Positions 47,646 through 51,270 of a DNA stretch of 64,000 nucleotides are shown here, piece after piece (positions within the stretch are counted from its first letter, which is position 1; every line of letters begins with the position of its first letter). Source of the stretch: Bdellovibrionota bacterium (GTDB lineage Bacteria > Bdellovibrionota > Bdellovibrionia > Bdellovibrionales > JAEYZS01). Below the pieces are notes generated by a model. That model made no database searches and was not told the DNA's origin. It worked only from the letters and a program-made list of their open reading frames with translations. The stretch lies in the NCBI GenBank assembly GCA_963169805.1, contig CAUJDY010000063.1, forward strand, positions 5,479 through 69,478. Reading direction: 5' to 3'. The translations under genes and the position numbers were made by a program.

Positions 47646-50600
47646 ACCACGCAACCAAAATGGAGTTGGGTTGATTGCGGCGATTATAGCAGCAGCCCTT
47701 GTTGTGTCTGCAGCTCTTGCTGTTAGCTATTTTATTGTTAATCAAAACAAATCCTCAGTAAAGCTCAGCAATAATACAAACTGCGTTACCATCGCATCCA
47801 GTATCAGTGATTATATTCGCAAAGATGACAATGCTGTCAATATCACGAATTTTGGACCAGCACTTGGACAAACTCAATTTGCATCAAACCTCGATACGAC
47901 AATTGATGGCTATGACAGGTTCTCATTTCAAGGAAATAGAATTGAAGCCTCTCAGCCAACCTCAGGAAATTTAAATATTGCTCCAGCAAGTGTGCTCACA
48001 AGTCCTGCCCGTGGCTCTGTTGCGATTCCTGATGGATGGAGCTTTTCAAACTACCTTAATATCAGGAACTCTACCAACAGACTTATTGCGTTGGCCTCTA
48101 ACGGTAATTTTTGTTGTGAAGATCTAGATTTAAGCGACACAGGATGCGGTGCCGATTTGTATGTTGATGGTGGCACCAACAATCCTCCCAGTCTCACTTT
48201 GCCTGCTCAAAATGTTCGAGTCAAACTTGCGATCAACATCGAAGAAAACGGATCCTCCCTTTGTAGCGGAGGGAGACTCTCTCGTTTACCAGACTTAAAA
48301 GATAGAATCACCACAAAGTACGTTGCACGAGTGATTCTGAACGAAAATCAACAGACAGCTCTTGCCTGTGAATCCGAAGGCTCAACCCAAATCCCAAGTG
48401 ATACTATAGCGCCTTATACAATTGTCAGTTTGAATTATACAGGACTATGTGATGCCACAAAAACGAGTTCTCCCTCGGCTTGTAGCGCAAGCAACGAAAT
48501 TCAACTCACAGCAAGCACTGTTGTTGATAGAAATTGGAATAATGGCGTTAATCCTTCTTGCCAGACATGCCTTAGAAGTACGATTGGCTATTACACGTGT
48601 GCTGGCTTAAACGCTGCAGAGCTCAACACAGCAACTGACGACGCTTTTAATACCTGCACAGCAGGTACAAACTCCCCATGTCTCCTCTCCGACCCAGGTT
48701 CTTTATTTTTATGTCGAGTTGGAGAAATGAATTGGTTCAATGCCAATCCTAATTTTTGGGAGCCATGCCACTCTGCTCGAGTAAGAGATTTTAATGGAAA
48801 TATTATTGGAGATCCTGTTGAAATCGAATATCTCAGAGTTGCAGCAGGACAAAACACAGACACCTACTCTCGTGCACGCATCACTCTTCGCAATCTCCCC
48901 GAAAGAGCTTATCAATTTGATATTCGTGCAGTTGACACAAAAGCTTCATTTGCTGGCCCATCTTTTTGCTCCACATCGGATTGCTCATCCCCAGCCTTTG
49001 TTGTTAATACAACCAACCCGACTCTCACGCAAGCACGCAGCTTGGGAGGTAACGTTGATGTTGTTCAAAATTTGTTTGATAATGGTGGCACTTCTTTTTC
49101 TGTCCCTGCTGCCATGGCAGCATTTGGCGCTTCAAAATTTCAATGCCAAGGTGGAGTCAGTCAATTTGAAACACAAATTCAATATCCTAGCCTTCCTGCA
49201 GGTGCTTATCCACTTGGACTCAATGGAAGTTGCACTTCGACACTTGTCTTGCCCAACGCCACATCTCGCCTCATAGGAACTTTTGAGGCTCAAGACAATC
49301 TTTGTCGGTTCAGTGCAGGGGCTAACCCCACAGATCCCTCTGGCAACTACGTTATTCGCACGACCTTCACCAACGAGTGTAATCGCTCCACACCAAATAC
49401 GAACTCAGAATCATGGTGTTATGACCGAGCAACGCCGTTTGCAACATCCATTAATACAACAAACGGATCGACTCCTACCTTTGCTCTGCAACACACGAAA
49501 CCTTGTGCTCTAGCTAAACTCTGCCCTCGCATAGATGGAGCAAGCCCTTCATGGTCTACGGCAAATTGTCCAGCGACACTGCCAGGATGGAGTGATTCGA
49601 GAGATTCCGGTTGTTTGAGGTCAACATCCGGACAATATTGCATGCTAGGATTTGATCCATGTGGACGTTCGTTTGAAGCGAGCACAGCTTATGAATCACA
49701 TCTCCTCGCAGGCAGTGCGACTACAAACAAATGCGTACGATCTCCAAATAATGATGAGTTTGATCCCTCTACGGTTTTAATTAGCGGGAATATGTGCGAG
49801 TCTGGTTGGTGCGATAATAATTTTAAGTGTGTAACAACCAATGCTAATATTGGAAGAAACTGTGACAACTCTGGCGCACCAGGTACAACTTGCGATCATA
49901 CCTCAGACTGTTCAGGCTCCCCAACTACTTGCAATACAACTTACAACTGTGAACTTCCAACAGGGCAAGTACAAGGACCTGTCTCCTGTACACTTGGAAC
50001 ACCTTGTACGATGACCAATAACAGCTGTGACATCGCTACCAATCGATGCACACTAACTAATGATGATTGTACGTCCACACCCTGTCCAACAGCAGGCACC
50101 TGCCGCGTGCGTGGACAAGGTACGTGCCAGGAACCTACAAATAGAACTTGCTCGTGCGAACCTGGCGAAGAAGTTTTCTGTCCGGTTGCAAACACATGTT
50201 TAGTCAATTCACTTGCTGCAAATCCTGCCGGCAGAAATTCAAATTGCACCCCACTTCCTCCTCTACCACCAGCTTGTGAATGGGTCGAGACATCACGCAC
50301 ACCATGCAGTGGCGCTTGCGGACAAGCTGGAACTCTCACAATTAATCGCACATGCAGAGTTGTTGGAACAGGCGCAGCTTGTGGAACTTGCACGGGATCC
50401 TCAACTGTAAACGGGGTTGCATGCACCTCTGCACCTTGCGCAACGGGTGTCCCTGTTACAACACGGGCACATTTCTGTTTTGTAAAAGATACGGAAATCA
50501 CACTAGCAAACGGAGGAATTGCGCCGATTCAAGATATTAAAGTAGGAGACTGGGTTACAACCTATGATGAGATACAAAAAAAGAACGTAATTTCTCAAGT

Positions 50601-51270
50601 AACGGAAGTTGCACATCATCCTCCTGAAATGACAGATTTTTTTAAGATTGATTTTACAAGTGGGAAAAATATTACTGTAACAGGAGATCACTATATTTTC
50701 TCTCCTGACGACAACTTTTATATTCCAGTTGAAATGATTTACGAACGGTGGAAAAGGTCTGGTGATTTTTATTTGTTAAACATCGACGGCAAGCGTGAAA
50801 AGATTCAAATGATTTATTCTTTCATGAGCGCCCAGCCTAGCTATAACTTACATGTTAAAGGTATATCAAGTGATGCGAAAAATTATGGAACTCTGGGACG
50901 TGGCCATAACTATTTTGCAAATGGTATTTTAGCACACAATATGAAGTGGGTTTGCCAAGGCGGTGCATGCTCAGGAGAAGGTTGTCCTAACTGCATGAGC
51001 ATGCCCCCTATGAGGCTTATTCTCAGCTGCGACTCTTCAGAGTTAACATGGCTATCAGTTGTATTTTTAACACCAGTCGATCAACAACCCTACACCCCAC
51101 CTGTCAACTTATCTGGAGCTGCCTGCACAAGTAACCCAGTTTGCAACTCTTCATGTGCCTCTACAGATGGATCAACCGCCAACATGGGAAGCCAATACTG
51201 CGTAACCCCCACTGGCCCTGGTACTTGTATCGGCTACCTCATTGGCATCTGCTTCTGCCCAGCCATCTAA
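47638..51270 (+). CDS. 1210-aa Cys-rich exported/anchored protein with TSP1-like and Hint (bacterial intein-like) domains
   Basis: Long uninterrupted ORF. N-terminal hydrophobic segment 'GVGLIAAIIAAALVVSAALAVSYF'. Sequence rich in Cys, Thr, Asn and Gly. Domain calls are listed separately. The start is uncertain: TTG 47638, or TTG 47671 preceded by GGAG. Confidence 0.8.
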   Translation: MFLPRNQNGVGLIAAIIAAALVVSAALAVSYFIVNQNKSSVKLSNNTNCVTIASSISDYIRKDDNAVNITNFGPALGQTQFASNLDTTIDGYDRFSFQGNRIEASQPTSGNLNIAPASVLTSPARGSVAIPDGWSFSNYLNIRNSTNRLIALASNGNFCCEDLDLSDTGCGADLYVDGGTNNPPSLTLPAQNVRVKLAINIEENGSSLCSGGRLSRLPDLKDRITTKYVARVILNENQQTALACESEGSTQIPSDTIAPYTIVSLNYTGLCDATKTSSPSACSASNEIQLTASTVVDRNWNNGVNPSCQTCLRSTIGYYTCAGLNAAELNTATDDAFNTCTAGTNSPCLLSDPGSLFLCRVGEMNWFNANPNFWEPCHSARVRDFNGNIIGDPVEIEYLRVAAGQNTDTYSRARITLRNLPERAYQFDIRAVDTKASFAGPSFCSTSDCSSPAFVVNTTNPTLTQARSLGGNVDVVQNLFDNGGTSFSVPAAMAAFGASKFQCQGGVSQFETQIQYPSLPAGAYPLGLNGSCTSTLVLPNATSRLIGTFEAQDNLCRFSAGANPTDPSGNYVIRTTFTNECNRSTPNTNSESWCYDRATPFATSINTTNGSTPTFALQHTKPCALAKLCPRIDGASPSWSTANCPATLPGWSDSRDSGCLRSTSGQYCMLGFDPCGRSFEASTAYESHLLAGSATTNKCVRSPNNDEFDPSTVLISGNMCESGWCDNNFKCVTTNANIGRNCDNSGAPGTTCDHTSDCSGSPTTCNTTYNCELPTGQVQGPVSCTLGTPCTMTNNSCDIATNRCTLTNDDCTSTPCPTAGTCRVRGQGTCQEPTNRTCSCEPGEEVFCPVANTCLVNSLAANPAGRNSNCTPLPPLPPACEWVETSRTPCSGACGQAGTLTINRTCRVVGTGAACGTCTGSSTVNGVACTSAPCATGVPVTTRAHFCFVKDTEITLANGGIAPIQDIKVGDWVTTYDEIQKKNVISQVTEVAHHPPEMTDFFKIDFTSGKNITVTGDHYIFSPDDNFYIPVEMIYERWKRSGDFYLLNIDGKREKIQMIYSFMSAQPSYNLHVKGISSDAKNYGTLGRGHNYFANGILAHNMKWVCQGGACSGEGCPNCMSMPPMRLILSCDSSELTWLSVVFLTPVDQQPYTPPVNLSGAACTSNPVCNSSCASTDGSTANMGSQYCVTPTGPGTCIGYLIGICFCPAI
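50275..50439 (+). other. thrombospondin type-1-repeat-like segment within the 1210-aa protein
   Basis: 'CEWVETSRTPCSGACGQAGTLTINRTCRVV...ACGTCTGSSTVNGVACTSAPC' fits the TSR core W...CSxxCGxGxxxRxRxC...C...C, but has only one Trp. Confidence 0.45.
50476..50940 (+). other. Hint / bacterial intein-like (BIL) domain, 155 aa
   Basis: Block A 'CFVKDTEITLANGGIAPIQDIKVGDWV', block B 'ITVTGDHYIF', blocks F/G 'YNLHV...HNYFANGILAHN'. The residue after the terminal HN is Met (50941), not Cys/Ser/Thr. Confidence 0.8.

What the first reader, a model, noticed from the sequence alone, without database searches (positions are those of the whole stretch)
50476..50940. Hint domain with all intein blocks but Met at +1, so it should cleave rather than splice
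The 155-aa segment starts with Cys (CFVKDTEITL...) and has the block B TxxH (VTGDH). It ends ...FANGILAHN, as a mini-intein does. The next residue is Met (atg at 50941), so the final transesterification and ligation of canonical protein splicing cannot occur. There is also no homing-endonuclease insert. This matches the A-type bacterial intein-like (BIL) domains described by Amitai and colleagues (2003). Those domains mediate N- and/or C-terminal cleavage and sit in variable extracellular proteins.
Basis: partly seen in the sequence, partly recalled or inferred. Interest (0 to 1): 0.7.

Follow-up and report, generated by a model that had tools for sequence, protein, structure and literature searches.

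The report
Intein-like self-cleaving domain in surface protein
A 155-residue intein-like (BIL) domain that lacks the residue needed for normal protein splicing sits near the end of a large cysteine-rich exported protein; it is a real, probably active member of an already described class of self-cleaving domains.

Summary
Window 50476-50940 (+) encodes residues 947-1101 of a 1210-aa ORF (47638-51270). It starts with Cys, has T-G-D-H in block B, ends His-Asn, and is followed by Met-Lys. It passes the curated thresholds of Pfam Hint and the NCBIfam intein N- and C-terminal models. An AlphaFold model (pLDDT 92.7) best matches two bacterial intein-like (BIL) structures: Tetrahymena BUBL BIL2 and Clostridium thermocellum BIL4.

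An exhaustive search found 699 relatives. In 116 full-length domains, 116 start with Cys and 115 end HN, but only 3 have Cys, Ser or Thr at +1. The missing nucleophile is therefore a family trait, not a lesion. Of the host protein's only two homologues, one has no BIL and one has three, so the domain lies in a variable region, as BILs do.

The A-type BIL reading holds, with two amendments. A-type BILs can still splice by aminolysis. A C-type BIL was described from Bdellovibrio, but that paper was not readable here, so it could not be excluded.

Two side observations stand out. Lys at +1 or +2 is strongly conserved in the family. The family is also strongly associated with type IV prepilin-like N-termini.

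Verdict: new member of a known kind, of modest interest.

The parts
47638..51270 (+). Host gene: 1210-aa exported, cysteine-rich orphan protein (TTG start; stop at 51268-51270)
   Evidence: ORF list and translation. The identical protein is on record from NCBI (P0001). Only two homologues of the N-terminal module were found: P0002 and P0003.
47638..47736 (+). Short leader MFLPRNQNG followed by the hydrophobic helix VGLIAAIIAAALVVSAALAVSYFIV. It resembles a prepilin (class III) signal but lacks Glu5.
   Evidence: The N-Q-x-G-x-G-L-I motif is conserved in P0002 and P0003. There is no N_methyl or TIGR02532 hit for the window protein itself. These motifs are, however, present in 13/78 and 9/78 BIL relatives and appear in 22 or more N-termini by regex. 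The pilin-like reading is an inference.
47638..49842 (+). Conserved N-terminal module (residues 1-735), function unknown
   Evidence: 34-38% identity to P0002 and P0003 over ~735 residues. No Pfam hit even at E<=10. The AF2 model is unusable (pLDDT 34).
49843..50475 (+). Variable Cys/Thr/Gly-rich region (residues 736-946). It includes a thrombospondin-repeat-like motif, CEWVETSRTPCSGACGQAGTLTINRTCR, at about 50275-50358.
   Evidence: Translation. The region aligns poorly with P0002 and P0003. No Pfam hit. TSP1_spondin and TSP_1 hits occur in 4 and 2 of 78 BIL relatives.
50476..50940 (+). BIL-type Hint domain, residues 947-1101
50476..50478 (+). Cys947, the block A nucleophile expected to perform the N-to-S acyl shift
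   Evidence: Cys is invariant in 116/116 full-length family domains.
50680..50691 (+). Block B: T1015-G-D-H1018 (TxxH)
   Evidence: His is invariant in 101/101 aligned domains. The preceding position is Thr in 40 and Asn in 59.
50905..50940 (+). Blocks F and G: H1090-N-Y-F-A-N-G-I-L-A-H1100-N1101. The terminal Asn is the residue expected to cyclise.
   Evidence: HN ends 115/116 domains. H144, N145, G150 and L152 are at least 80-90% conserved.
50941..50946 (+). Met1102 (+1, not a nucleophile) and Lys1103 (+2)
   Evidence: Cys, Ser or Thr at +1 occurs in only 3/130 and 7/98 family domains. Lys at +1 or +2 occurs in 92/130 and 81/98, against 3% Lys at positions +3 to +12.
50941..51267 (+). 109-aa Cys-rich C-terminal tail (the C-extein), ending ...GICFCPAI
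   Evidence: No homologue and no Pfam hit. A Cys-Pro at the extreme C-terminus recurs in 12 of 66 family tails, including the C-terminus of the BIL-less P0002, against 1.7 expected from shuffles. GC3 is 0.49, against about 0.3 elsewhere.
47606..47633 (+). Terminator-like hairpin (11 bp, 6 GC) between the upstream adhesin gene and this gene. Its T-tail contains the TTG start, and its 3' arm carries the AAGGGGG Shine-Dalgarno-like sequence.
   Evidence: This is context only.

Best explanation
Residues 947-1101 form a catalytically intact bacterial intein-like (BIL) Hint domain. It is of the A-type kind by its defining features, or possibly the closely related C-type of predatory bacteria. It sits in the variable C-terminal region of an exported cysteine-rich protein from a probably Bdellovibrio-like bacterium.

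Inferred mechanism:
1. After export and folding, Cys947 attacks the Phe946 carbonyl (N-to-S acyl shift), helped by the block B Thr1015 and His1018. This gives a thioester.
2. Independently, Asn1101, helped by His1100, cyclises to a succinimide and breaks the Asn1101-Met1102 bond.
3. Because +1 is Met, no branched ester intermediate can form. The thioester is therefore mainly hydrolysed or thiolysed, releasing the ~946-residue N-fragment. The 109-residue tail is released separately.
4. A minority of molecules may be ligated when the freed alpha-amine of Met1102, or conceivably the epsilon-amine of Lys1103, attacks the thioester.

The biological effect would be post-translational maturation or diversification of a surface or pilin-like protein. 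What is shown: domain identity, residue conservation, fold, the family-wide lack of a +1 nucleophile, and the variable-site location. What is inferred: every chemical step, and export.
For: The sequence is as described. Curated thresholds are passed for Pfam Hint, TIGR01445 and TIGR01443. There are 699 relatives; 116/116 start with Cys, 115/116 end HN, and 3/116 have a +1 nucleophile. All invariant family positions are kept.

The family profile hits BUBL BIL2 at 1e-21, the UmbC1 HINT at 1e-16 and Cth BIL4 at 5e-11, ahead of all inteins. hhalign to Cth BIL4 gives 99.1% probability and E 5e-19, end to end. The AF2 model has pLDDT 92.7, and Foldseek's top hits are 6Y75/6TMM and 2LWY.

The host's homologues carry 0 BILs (P0002) or 3 BILs (P0003). 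The BIL's GC3 of 0.29 equals the genomic value, and its 45% identity to P0003's BIL at the same site is comparable to the 38% of the host module, so the domain is resident rather than recently acquired.

Reviews state that A-type BILs end in HN, lack a +1 nucleophile, mostly cleave, can splice by aminolysis, and lie in variable regions of non-conserved bacterial proteins (PMC4031507, PMC5874633, PMC7765530).
Against: There is no biochemical evidence for this protein. Pairwise BLASTP of the window domain against Cth BIL4 finds nothing; the relationship is visible only through profiles and structure. Position 5 is Asp where 90/101 relatives have Gly, and the -1 residue is Phe rather than the commonest Gly; either could slow the N-terminal reaction. 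The periplasm is oxidising and the flanks are full of cysteines, so Cys947 could be trapped in a disulfide. The sub-type (A versus C) is unresolved.
Confidence: 0.8

Rival explanations
1. Pre-toxin HINT of a polymorphic toxin. On this view the domain exists to release the 109-residue C-terminal tail as a toxin or effector, as proposed for PT-HINT domains and seen in architectures such as UmbC1 and class 1 MafB.
For: 73 of 78 relatives hit Pfam PT-HINT at E<=1e-3. The family profile hits the HINT domain of the Streptomyces umbrella toxin UmbC1 at E 1e-16 (PMC11062931). The layout of a conserved N-terminal domain, a BIL and a variable C-terminus is that of MafB (PMC4436062).
Against: The window domain itself is below the PT-HINT cut-off (18.6 bits against 27.7). 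The tail has no homologue and no family hit, and its Cys-rich character resembles the region before the BIL. The next gene is a convergent RAYT-type transposase 60 nt downstream, so there is no immunity-gene candidate. The median tail in the family is 47 residues, and many proteins stop 1-10 residues after HN, too short for a toxin. Relatives' loci show no toxin-immunity pattern.
Confidence: 0.08
2. Thioester hand-off rather than simple cleavage. The Cys947 thioester would be resolved by an amine, either the conserved Lys at +1 or +2 or a Lys of another protein. This would give an isopeptide-linked product, that is, covalent coupling of the N-fragment, as shown for Tetrahymena BUBL BIL2.
For: The closest solved relative by sequence and by fold is BUBL BIL2, reported to form a Lys epsilon-amine isopeptide and to conjugate its N-extein to other proteins (PMC8616854). 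Lys at +1 or +2 is present in 71-83% of family domains against a 3% background, and is present here as K1103.
Against: This is purely inferential. Lys could instead have a structural or catalytic-assist role. Many family members end at HN-K with nothing to ligate. The literature searches retrieved no report of such chemistry for bacterial BILs.
Confidence: 0.1
3. Inactive relic. On this view a decayed intein lost its +1 nucleophile and now serves only as a structural spacer.
For: There is no +1 nucleophile, and position 5 has an unusual Asp.
Against: All catalytic positions are intact, and the same pattern (Cys1, HN, non-nucleophilic +1) is kept across hundreds of diverged relatives. That is the signature of selection on a distinct activity, not of decay. 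The homologue P0003 maintains three intact copies.
Confidence: 0.04
4. Ordinary class 1 mini-intein that splices canonically.
For: Intein blocks A, B, F and G are present. TIGR01445 and TIGR01443 pass their cut-offs.
Against: Met at +1. The insertion is in a non-conserved region of a non-conserved protein, with presence/absence and copy-number variation. Profile scores to true inteins are many orders of magnitude weaker than to BILs.
Confidence: 0.01

Closest known systems
Clostridium thermocellum BIL4 (PDB 2LWY), a solved BIL domain studied by Aranko et al. 2013 (A-type by my recollection)
   Same: Same fold (Foldseek E 2e-8, TMt 0.86). Same terminal motifs (CFVAGT... and ...VLVHN in Cth BIL4; CFVKDT... 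and ...ILAHN here; family consensus CFVAGT...GVLVHN). Full-length profile match at 99.1% probability and E 5e-19. Mini size with no endonuclease.
   Different: Pairwise identity is too low for BLASTP to detect. The window domain is 20 residues longer, with an insert before block F. The host is a proteobacterial-type exported orphan protein rather than a clostridial protein.
Tetrahymena thermophila BUBL1 BIL2 (PDB 6Y75/6TMM)
   Same: Best hit by sequence (phmmer E 1e-6; profile E 1e-21) and by fold (E 3e-12). Ends ...FFANGVLAH(N) like the window domain.
   Different: It is eukaryotic and flanked by ubiquitin-like domains. It is reported to make a Lys isopeptide and to be zinc-activated (PMC8616854). 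Nothing ubiquitin-like flanks the window domain.
C-type BIL domains of Bdellovibrio bacteriovorus and other predatory bacteria (Dori-Bachash et al. 2009, Funct Integr Genomics 9:153)
   Same: Taxonomic setting. The nearest genomic relatives of the window domain are in Bdellovibrio, Bdellovibrionaceae, Bacteriovoracales and Bacteriovorax, together with many Polyangiaceae and other myxobacterial genomes.
   Different: Unknown. The paper is not held, so its defining motifs and the associated PPS-1 domain (mentioned in PMC9185962) could not be compared. This is the main open point of classification.
HINT domain of the Streptomyces umbrella toxin UmbC1 (PDB 8W20) and Pfam PT-HINT
   Same: Second-best solved sequence relative of the family profile (E 1e-16). 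The Hint domain lies just upstream of a variable C-terminus.
   Different: UmbC1 carries a recognised C-terminal toxin (PMC11062931). Here the tail is an orphan Cys-rich peptide with no immunity gene, and the window domain scores below the PT-HINT cut-off.
Class 1 mini-inteins (for example Npu/Ssp DnaB, Npu DnaE)
   Same: Same fold (Foldseek E ~1e-8) and the same catalytic blocks A, B, F and G.
   Different: Inteins have Cys, Ser or Thr at +1 and sit in conserved sites of conserved proteins. This domain has Met at +1 and sits in a variable region.

Membership tests
HINT (Hedgehog/intein) superfamily | Significant sequence match to curated Hint or intein models | tested here: met
   Pfam Hint 41.7 bits against GA 29.7. 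TIGR01445 34.0 against 24.5. TIGR01443 18.2 against 15.6.
HINT (Hedgehog/intein) superfamily | Horseshoe-like all-beta Hint fold | tested here: met
   AF2 model with pLDDT 92.7 and pTM 0.88. Foldseek finds 64 PDB matches at E<=1e-3; the 50 listed are all BIL, intein or Hedgehog Hint domains.
A-type bacterial intein-like (BIL) domain | N-terminal Cys (or Ser) nucleophile plus block B TxxH | tested here: met
   Cys947 and T1015-G-D-H1018.
A-type bacterial intein-like (BIL) domain | C-terminal His-Asn, as in inteins (this separates A-type from B-type) | tested here: met
   ...ILAHN at residues 1097-1101. HN ends 115/116 family domains. Definition from PMC4031507 and PMC7765530.
A-type bacterial intein-like (BIL) domain | No Cys, Ser or Thr nucleophile at the +1 position | tested here: met
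   Met1102. Family-wide, 3/130 and 7/98 domains have a nucleophile.
A-type bacterial intein-like (BIL) domain | Small (about 130-155 aa) with no homing endonuclease | tested here: met
   155 aa and no endonuclease family hit. Size range from PMC9185962.
A-type bacterial intein-like (BIL) domain | Located in a variable region of a non-conserved, typically secreted bacterial protein, not in a conserved site | tested here: met
   P0002 lacks the domain and P0003 has three. The flanks are unalignable Cys-rich sequence. The protein has an N-terminal hydrophobic leader.
A-type bacterial intein-like (BIL) domain | Closer in sequence to solved BIL prototypes than to inteins or Hog domains | tested here: met
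   Profile E-values: BUBL BIL2 1e-21, Cth BIL4 5e-11 (hhalign 5e-19), best intein 3e-7 (partial match), Hedgehog 1e-4. Pairwise BLASTP alone is negative.
A-type bacterial intein-like (BIL) domain | Distinguishable from C-type BILs of predatory bacteria | not testable with these tools
   The defining paper (Dori-Bachash 2009) is not held. Only its existence and the PPS-1 association are known (PMC9185962).
A-type bacterial intein-like (BIL) domain | Autocatalytic N- and/or C-terminal cleavage (with minor splicing) | not testable with these tools
   Requires expression and mutagenesis.
B-type BIL domain | Lacks the intein-like block G; no terminal His-Asn | tested here: not met
   The window domain ends His1100-Asn1101, so it is not B-type (definition from PMC4031507).
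Canonical class 1 intein | Cys, Ser or Thr at +1 for transesterification | tested here: not met
   Met1102.
Canonical class 1 intein | Insertion in a conserved site of a conserved host protein | tested here: not met
   The host is an orphan protein with only two homologues among ~15 billion proteins, and the site lies in a variable region. Criterion from PMC2814812.
Pre-toxin HINT (Pfam PF07591) of polymorphic toxins | Score above the PT-HINT gathering cut-off | tested here: not met
   18.6 bits against 27.7 for the window domain, although 73/78 relatives match at E<=1e-3.
Pre-toxin HINT (Pfam PF07591) of polymorphic toxins | Recognisable C-terminal toxin domain followed by an immunity gene | tested here: not met
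   The tail has no homologue or family. The downstream neighbour is a convergent Y1 transposase.
Type IV pilin-like protein (class III signal peptide) | N-terminal cleavage/methylation motif G|FxxxE (Pfam N_methyl, TIGR02532) | tested here: inconclusive
   No hit for the window protein. It has a short leader ending in Gly plus a 24-residue hydrophobic helix without Glu5. Canonical motifs are present in 13/78 and 9/78 BIL relatives.

The most novel reading that the evidence does not exclude
In this Hint subfamily the strongly conserved Lys at +1 or +2 (K1103 here) may be the functional substitute for the missing Cys/Ser/Thr. Its epsilon-amine, or a Lys of a neighbouring subunit or target, would resolve the Cys1 thioester into an isopeptide bond. 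Because a large share of the subfamily is fused to type IV prepilin-like N-termini, this would amount to ATP- and sortase-independent covalent coupling of pilin-like surface proteins. It would occur in Gram-negative predatory bacteria and in some archaea, as a bacterial counterpart of BUBL 'ubiquitination by splicing'.
Probability: 0.08. Interest if true: 0.8.

Novelty: new member of a known kind. Interest (0 to 1): 0.33.

Why it matters
For annotation, this turns a 'hypothetical protein' into a precursor that is probably cut into at least two or three pieces, so the mature surface product is not the 1210-residue chain. For the field it adds little, because BIL domains without a +1 nucleophile have been known since 2003 and their chemistry has been studied.

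The broader family picture collected here may be worth a specialist's look. The Lys after His-Asn is near-universal. Many proteins end right after HN-K. Tandem HNK|CF arrays occur, including in archaeal genomes. Fusion to prepilin-like N-termini is frequent. Together these suggest a dedicated maturation or coupling role in pilin-like proteins, which the literature searches made here did not find described.

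Tried and rejected
1. The word-indexed homologue search with the Hint segment and with the tail returned nothing. The exhaustive search was needed.
2. Two scans for relatives of the host protein's N-terminal module found nothing: genome contigs and metagenome contigs. The host family is therefore known only from P0001, P0002 and P0003, and no DNA could be fetched for the latter two.
3. The AF2 model of the N-terminal module built from a 3-sequence alignment failed (pLDDT 34), so no fold assignment for the host was possible.
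4. Tail homology was not supported. phmmer and BLASTP of the 109-aa tail against 66 family tails gave only E~0.1-1. A profile of the conserved post-BIL 'xK(x)CGG..S' Cys-rich module from 9 relatives does not score the window tail above shuffles. I therefore rejected the idea that the tail is a member of that module.
5. Recent horizontal acquisition of the BIL was rejected. The low GC of the domain (0.355) is due to amino-acid composition, and its GC3 (0.29) is genome-like.
6. Pilus-operon or toxin-immunity context was not seen in the window or in five relatives' loci.
7. The organism could not be named directly. There is no rRNA or other Rfam hit, and the contig is not in the genome collection. 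'Bdellovibrio-like' rests on the nearest BIL relatives, a weak NF052240 Bdellovibrio MIDAS-adhesin hit in the upstream gene and 37.8% GC.
8. The afdb50 fold library was unavailable.
9. The C-type BIL paper and the two primary A-type papers are not held.

Full report
OBSERVATION. Window 50476-50940 on the + strand translates to a 155-residue segment, CFVKDTEITL...NITVTGDHYIF...GRGHNYFANGILAHN, followed in frame by MKWVCQGG. It is residues 947-1101 of an uninterrupted 1210-codon ORF, 47638-51270, with a TTG start. The same protein is on record from an NCBI assembly (P0001).

IS IT MORE THAN CHANCE? Yes. On the isolated segment, Pfam Hint scores 41.7 bits against a gathering cut-off of 29.7 (E 1.3e-10). 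Sub-threshold hits to Intein_splicing, Vint, Hom_end_hint, PT-HINT and Hint_2 cover the same residues. NCBIfam intein_Nterm (34.0 against 24.5) and intein_Cterm (18.2 against 15.6) both pass. An exhaustive phmmer search of 1.84 billion cluster representatives finds 699 proteins at E<=1e-3 and 132 at E<=1e-10. A six-frame scan shows this is the only such domain in the window.

FAMILY ANATOMY. In the best 150 proteins I found 116 full-length copies of the domain. All 116 start with Cys, 115 start 'CF', and 115 end 'HN'. The +1 residue is K 34, A 20, V 18, L 9, M 5, with S/T/C together only 3.
- In an alignment of 101 copies the invariant or near-invariant positions are C1, F2, T6, G13, I18, G24, V42, H72 (block B), N124, H144-N145 (block F), G150, L152 and H154-N155 (block G).
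- The window domain keeps all of them. Its only unusual residue is Asp at position 5, where 90 of 101 copies have Gly.
- The 'missing' +1 nucleophile is therefore a conserved property of a large family, not damage to an intein.

STRUCTURE AND NEAREST KNOWN RELATIVES. By sequence alone, the best solved relative of the window domain is PDB 6Y75/6TMM (E 1e-6). This is the BIL2 domain of the Tetrahymena thermophila BUBL1 locus (PMC8616854). A 35-sequence family profile (A2) hits the following:
- BIL2 at E 1e-21.
- The HINT domain of the Streptomyces umbrella-toxin protein UmbC1 (8W20; PMC11062931) at 1e-16.
- The C. thermocellum 'bacterial intein-like domain' 2LWY at 5e-11.
- True inteins only from 3e-7 upward, and the strongest of those hits cover only the first ~40 residues.

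hhalign of the profile against the 2LWY sequence gives 99.1% probability and E 5e-19, aligned from Cys1 to the terminal HN. Cth BIL4 reads CFVAGT...VLVHN, which is the family consensus. Pairwise BLASTP of the window domain against Cth BIL4 finds nothing, so the link is at profile level. AlphaFold2 with A2 gives a confident model (pLDDT 92.7, pTM 0.88). Foldseek against the PDB ranks the four BIL2 chains first (E 3e-12 to 3e-11), then 2LWY (2e-8), then DnaB and DnaE mini-inteins and Hedgehog.

HOST PROTEIN AND SITE. The host is an orphan. No Pfam family hits the N-terminal 735 residues, the Cys-rich region 736-946 or the 109-residue tail, even at E<=10. Only two homologues of the N-terminal module were found.
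- P0002 (902 aa, 34% identity over ~770 columns) has no Hint domain.
- P0003 (1755 aa) has three Hint domains separated by Cys-rich spacers.
- In the three-way alignment the window's BIL and P0003's first BIL occupy the same place, after a thrombospondin-repeat-like Cys motif. P0002 is simply shorter there.
- The window's BIL is 45% identical to P0003 BIL1, 40% to BIL3 and 35% to BIL2. This is comparable to the 38% identity of the host modules.
- Its third-position GC (0.29) is genome-like (window genes 0.25-0.32).

The domain is therefore an old resident of a variable region, with copy number differing between homologues. Reviews describe exactly this behaviour for BILs (PMC5874633, PMC7765530, PMC2814812), and it is the opposite of an intein's conserved-site habit.

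All three homologues begin with a short leader ending in Gly, then a ~24-residue hydrophobic helix (NQxG|xGLI...). This indicates export. Neighbouring genes are an upstream lipoprotein adhesin with Ig-like repeats and a MIDAS-adhesin-like C-terminal half and a convergent Y1/RAYT transposase, AcrB and an OEP gene downstream. No pilus, secretion-system or immunity gene is adjacent.

MECHANISM. According to PMC4031507, type A BILs have the intein-like C-terminal His-Asn but lack the +1 nucleophile. They therefore cannot form the branched intermediate. They form the N-terminal thioester and cleave the C-terminal junction by Asn cyclisation. They give mostly cleavage products, but they can splice when the freed amino group of the C-fragment attacks the thioester.

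Every residue this scheme needs is present here: Cys947, Thr1015/His1018, His1100/Asn1101. I therefore take uncoupled N- and C-terminal autocleavage, with possible minor aminolytic ligation, as the most likely behaviour (confidence about 0.8 that the domain is an active BIL-type autoprocessing module). All chemical steps are inferred and none is shown.

RIVALS.
(a) Pre-toxin HINT. Most relatives hit Pfam PT-HINT (73/78) and the UmbC1 HINT is a close relative. Against this, the window domain is below the PT-HINT cut-off, the tail is an orphan peptide that is Cys-rich like the region before the BIL, no immunity gene follows, and family tails are typically far too short for toxins (median 47 residues, many 1-10).
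(b) Thioester hand-off to an amine, as reported for BUBL BIL2 (PMC8616854). Lys occupies +1 or +2 in 92/130 representative domains and 81/98 genomic ones, against 3% Lys at +3 to +12, and the window has K1103. This is suggestive but untested.
(c) An inactive relic. This is contradicted by family-wide conservation of the catalytic set.
(d) A canonical intein. This is excluded by Met+1 and the variable site.

CLASSIFICATION CAVEAT. While checking the literature I found that a third class, the C-type BIL, was described from Bdellovibrio bacteriovorus and other predatory bacteria, together with a 'putative predator-specific domain 1' (Dori-Bachash et al. 2009; cited in PMC9185962 and PMC2797640). 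The paper is not held.

The genome scan with A2 found 230 relatives. The best are from uncultured Bdellovibrio, Bdellovibrionaceae, Bacteriovoracales and Bacteriovorax stolpii, and many others are from Polyangiaceae and other myxobacteria. There are also hits in Verrucomicrobiota, Omnitrophota, Patescibacteria, Gammaproteobacteria including Legionella, and numerous archaea.

The window domain satisfies every A-type criterion I could test. I cannot exclude that specialists would file it under C-type. Either way it is a BIL.

SOURCE ORGANISM. It could not be named. Rfam finds nothing and the contig is not in the species-representative genome set. A Bdellovibrio-and-like organism is likely, as an inference, for three reasons: the nearest BIL relatives, a weak NF052240 'MIDAS family adhesin' hit in the upstream gene (that this model derives from Bdellovibrio is my reading of its short name), and 37.8% GC.

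WIDER OBSERVATIONS (outside the finding).
- Among 78 relatives scanned, 13 carry Pfam N_methyl and 9 carry TIGR02532 (prepilin cleavage/methylation motif). Several hit GspG, GspH, ComGC, ComGE or PilA models.
- By regex, at least 22 N-termini are prepilin-like, including Glu5-less variants like the window's.
- Their BILs sit at the C-terminal end with short tails.
- Tandem arrays in which one domain's HN-K is followed directly by the next CF occur in bacteria and archaea, and many proteins terminate right after HN-K.
- Full-text searches retrieved no paper linking Hint or BIL domains to pilins.

These points motivate the 'novel case' but do not change the verdict on the finding.

VERDICT. This is a new member of a known kind of autoprocessing domain, in an uncharacterised host protein. 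Interest is modest.

Noticed in passing
Relatives P0007-P0124; window 47638-47736: The BIL subfamily is strongly associated with type IV prepilin-like N-termini. Pfam N_methyl is present in 13/78 and TIGR02532 in 9/78, and at least 22 are prepilin-like by regex. The BIL lies at the C-terminal end of these pilin-like proteins. The window protein has a Glu5-less version (MFLPRNQNG|VGLIAAII...). Full-text searches retrieved no description of pilin-BIL fusions.
   Followed up: partly
window 50941-50946; family-wide: Lys at +1 or +2 after the terminal His-Asn occurs in 92/130 and 81/98 domains, against a 3% Lys background. In the window it is K1103. Its role is unknown. BUBL BIL2, the closest solved relative, uses a Lys epsilon-amine as nucleophile.
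   Followed up: partly
L055, L063, L078, L012, L051; P0008, P0022, P0028: Tandem arrays of two to five BIL domains are joined head to tail by as little as one Lys (…LVHNK|CF…). They occur in bacteria and also in archaeal genomes (Thermoplasmatales, Nanoarchaeota, Woesearchaeota). Many other proteins end 0-3 residues after HN, so they have no C-extein at all.
   Followed up: no
window 51244-51267; tails of P0006, P0009, P0014, P0034, P0038, P0079, P0150; C-terminus of P0002: A Cys-Pro at the extreme C-terminus (…CP, …CPAI, …CPNGAI) recurs in 12 of 66 tail sequences, including the C-terminus of the BIL-less homologue P0002. Shuffles give 1.7 on average (maximum 6 in 1000).
   Followed up: partly
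P0013, P0021, P0029 (=L001), P0035, P0043, P0045, P0061, P0072, P0079: A conserved ~60-residue Cys-rich module directly follows the BIL in nine relatives (xK(x)CGG..S…C…C.F…C). The window's tail does not match it. It might be the 'PPS-1' domain of the C-type BIL paper, but that could not be checked.
   Followed up: partly
window 50941-51267: The 109-codon tail has GC3 0.486, against 0.29-0.34 in the rest of the gene and 0.25-0.32 in other genes of the window. This is unexplained.
   Followed up: no
window 47588-47645: A strong terminator-like hairpin (CCCCCTTA…TAAGGGGG, 11 bp) lies at 47606-47633. Its T-run contains the TTG start codon at 47638, and its 3' arm doubles as the Shine-Dalgarno-like AAGGGGG. 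A promoter-like TTGAAC-18-TATACT overlaps the 5' arm.
   Followed up: no
window 51330-52073 (-); P0003 contig: An IS200/Y1-type (RAYT-like) transposase gene lies immediately downstream of the BIL gene. This is so both in the window (convergent) and in the metagenomic contig carrying the three-BIL homologue P0003 (same strand).
   Followed up: no
window about 50275-50358; P0003 residues ~860-890: A thrombospondin type 1 repeat-like motif lies just upstream of the BIL (W..…CSGACGQAG…R.C here; WSVGAWSACS…RTR…C in P0003). There is no Pfam hit in the window protein, but TSP1_spondin and TSP_1 hit 4 and 2 of 78 BIL relatives.
   Followed up: partly
window 45199-47583 (+): The upstream gene encodes a 794-aa lipoprotein (lipobox …FTVGC). 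It has OmpL47/Big_13-type Ig-like repeats and a C-terminal half that aligns over nearly the full length of NCBIfam NF052240 'MIDAS family adhesin' (model short name MIDASAdhsBdello), at 78 bits, far below the cut-off of 700.
   Followed up: no
contig of P0009: Two Hint-domain proteins (515 and 567 aa) are encoded divergently next to each other. These genes therefore occur in multiple copies per genome.
   Followed up: no
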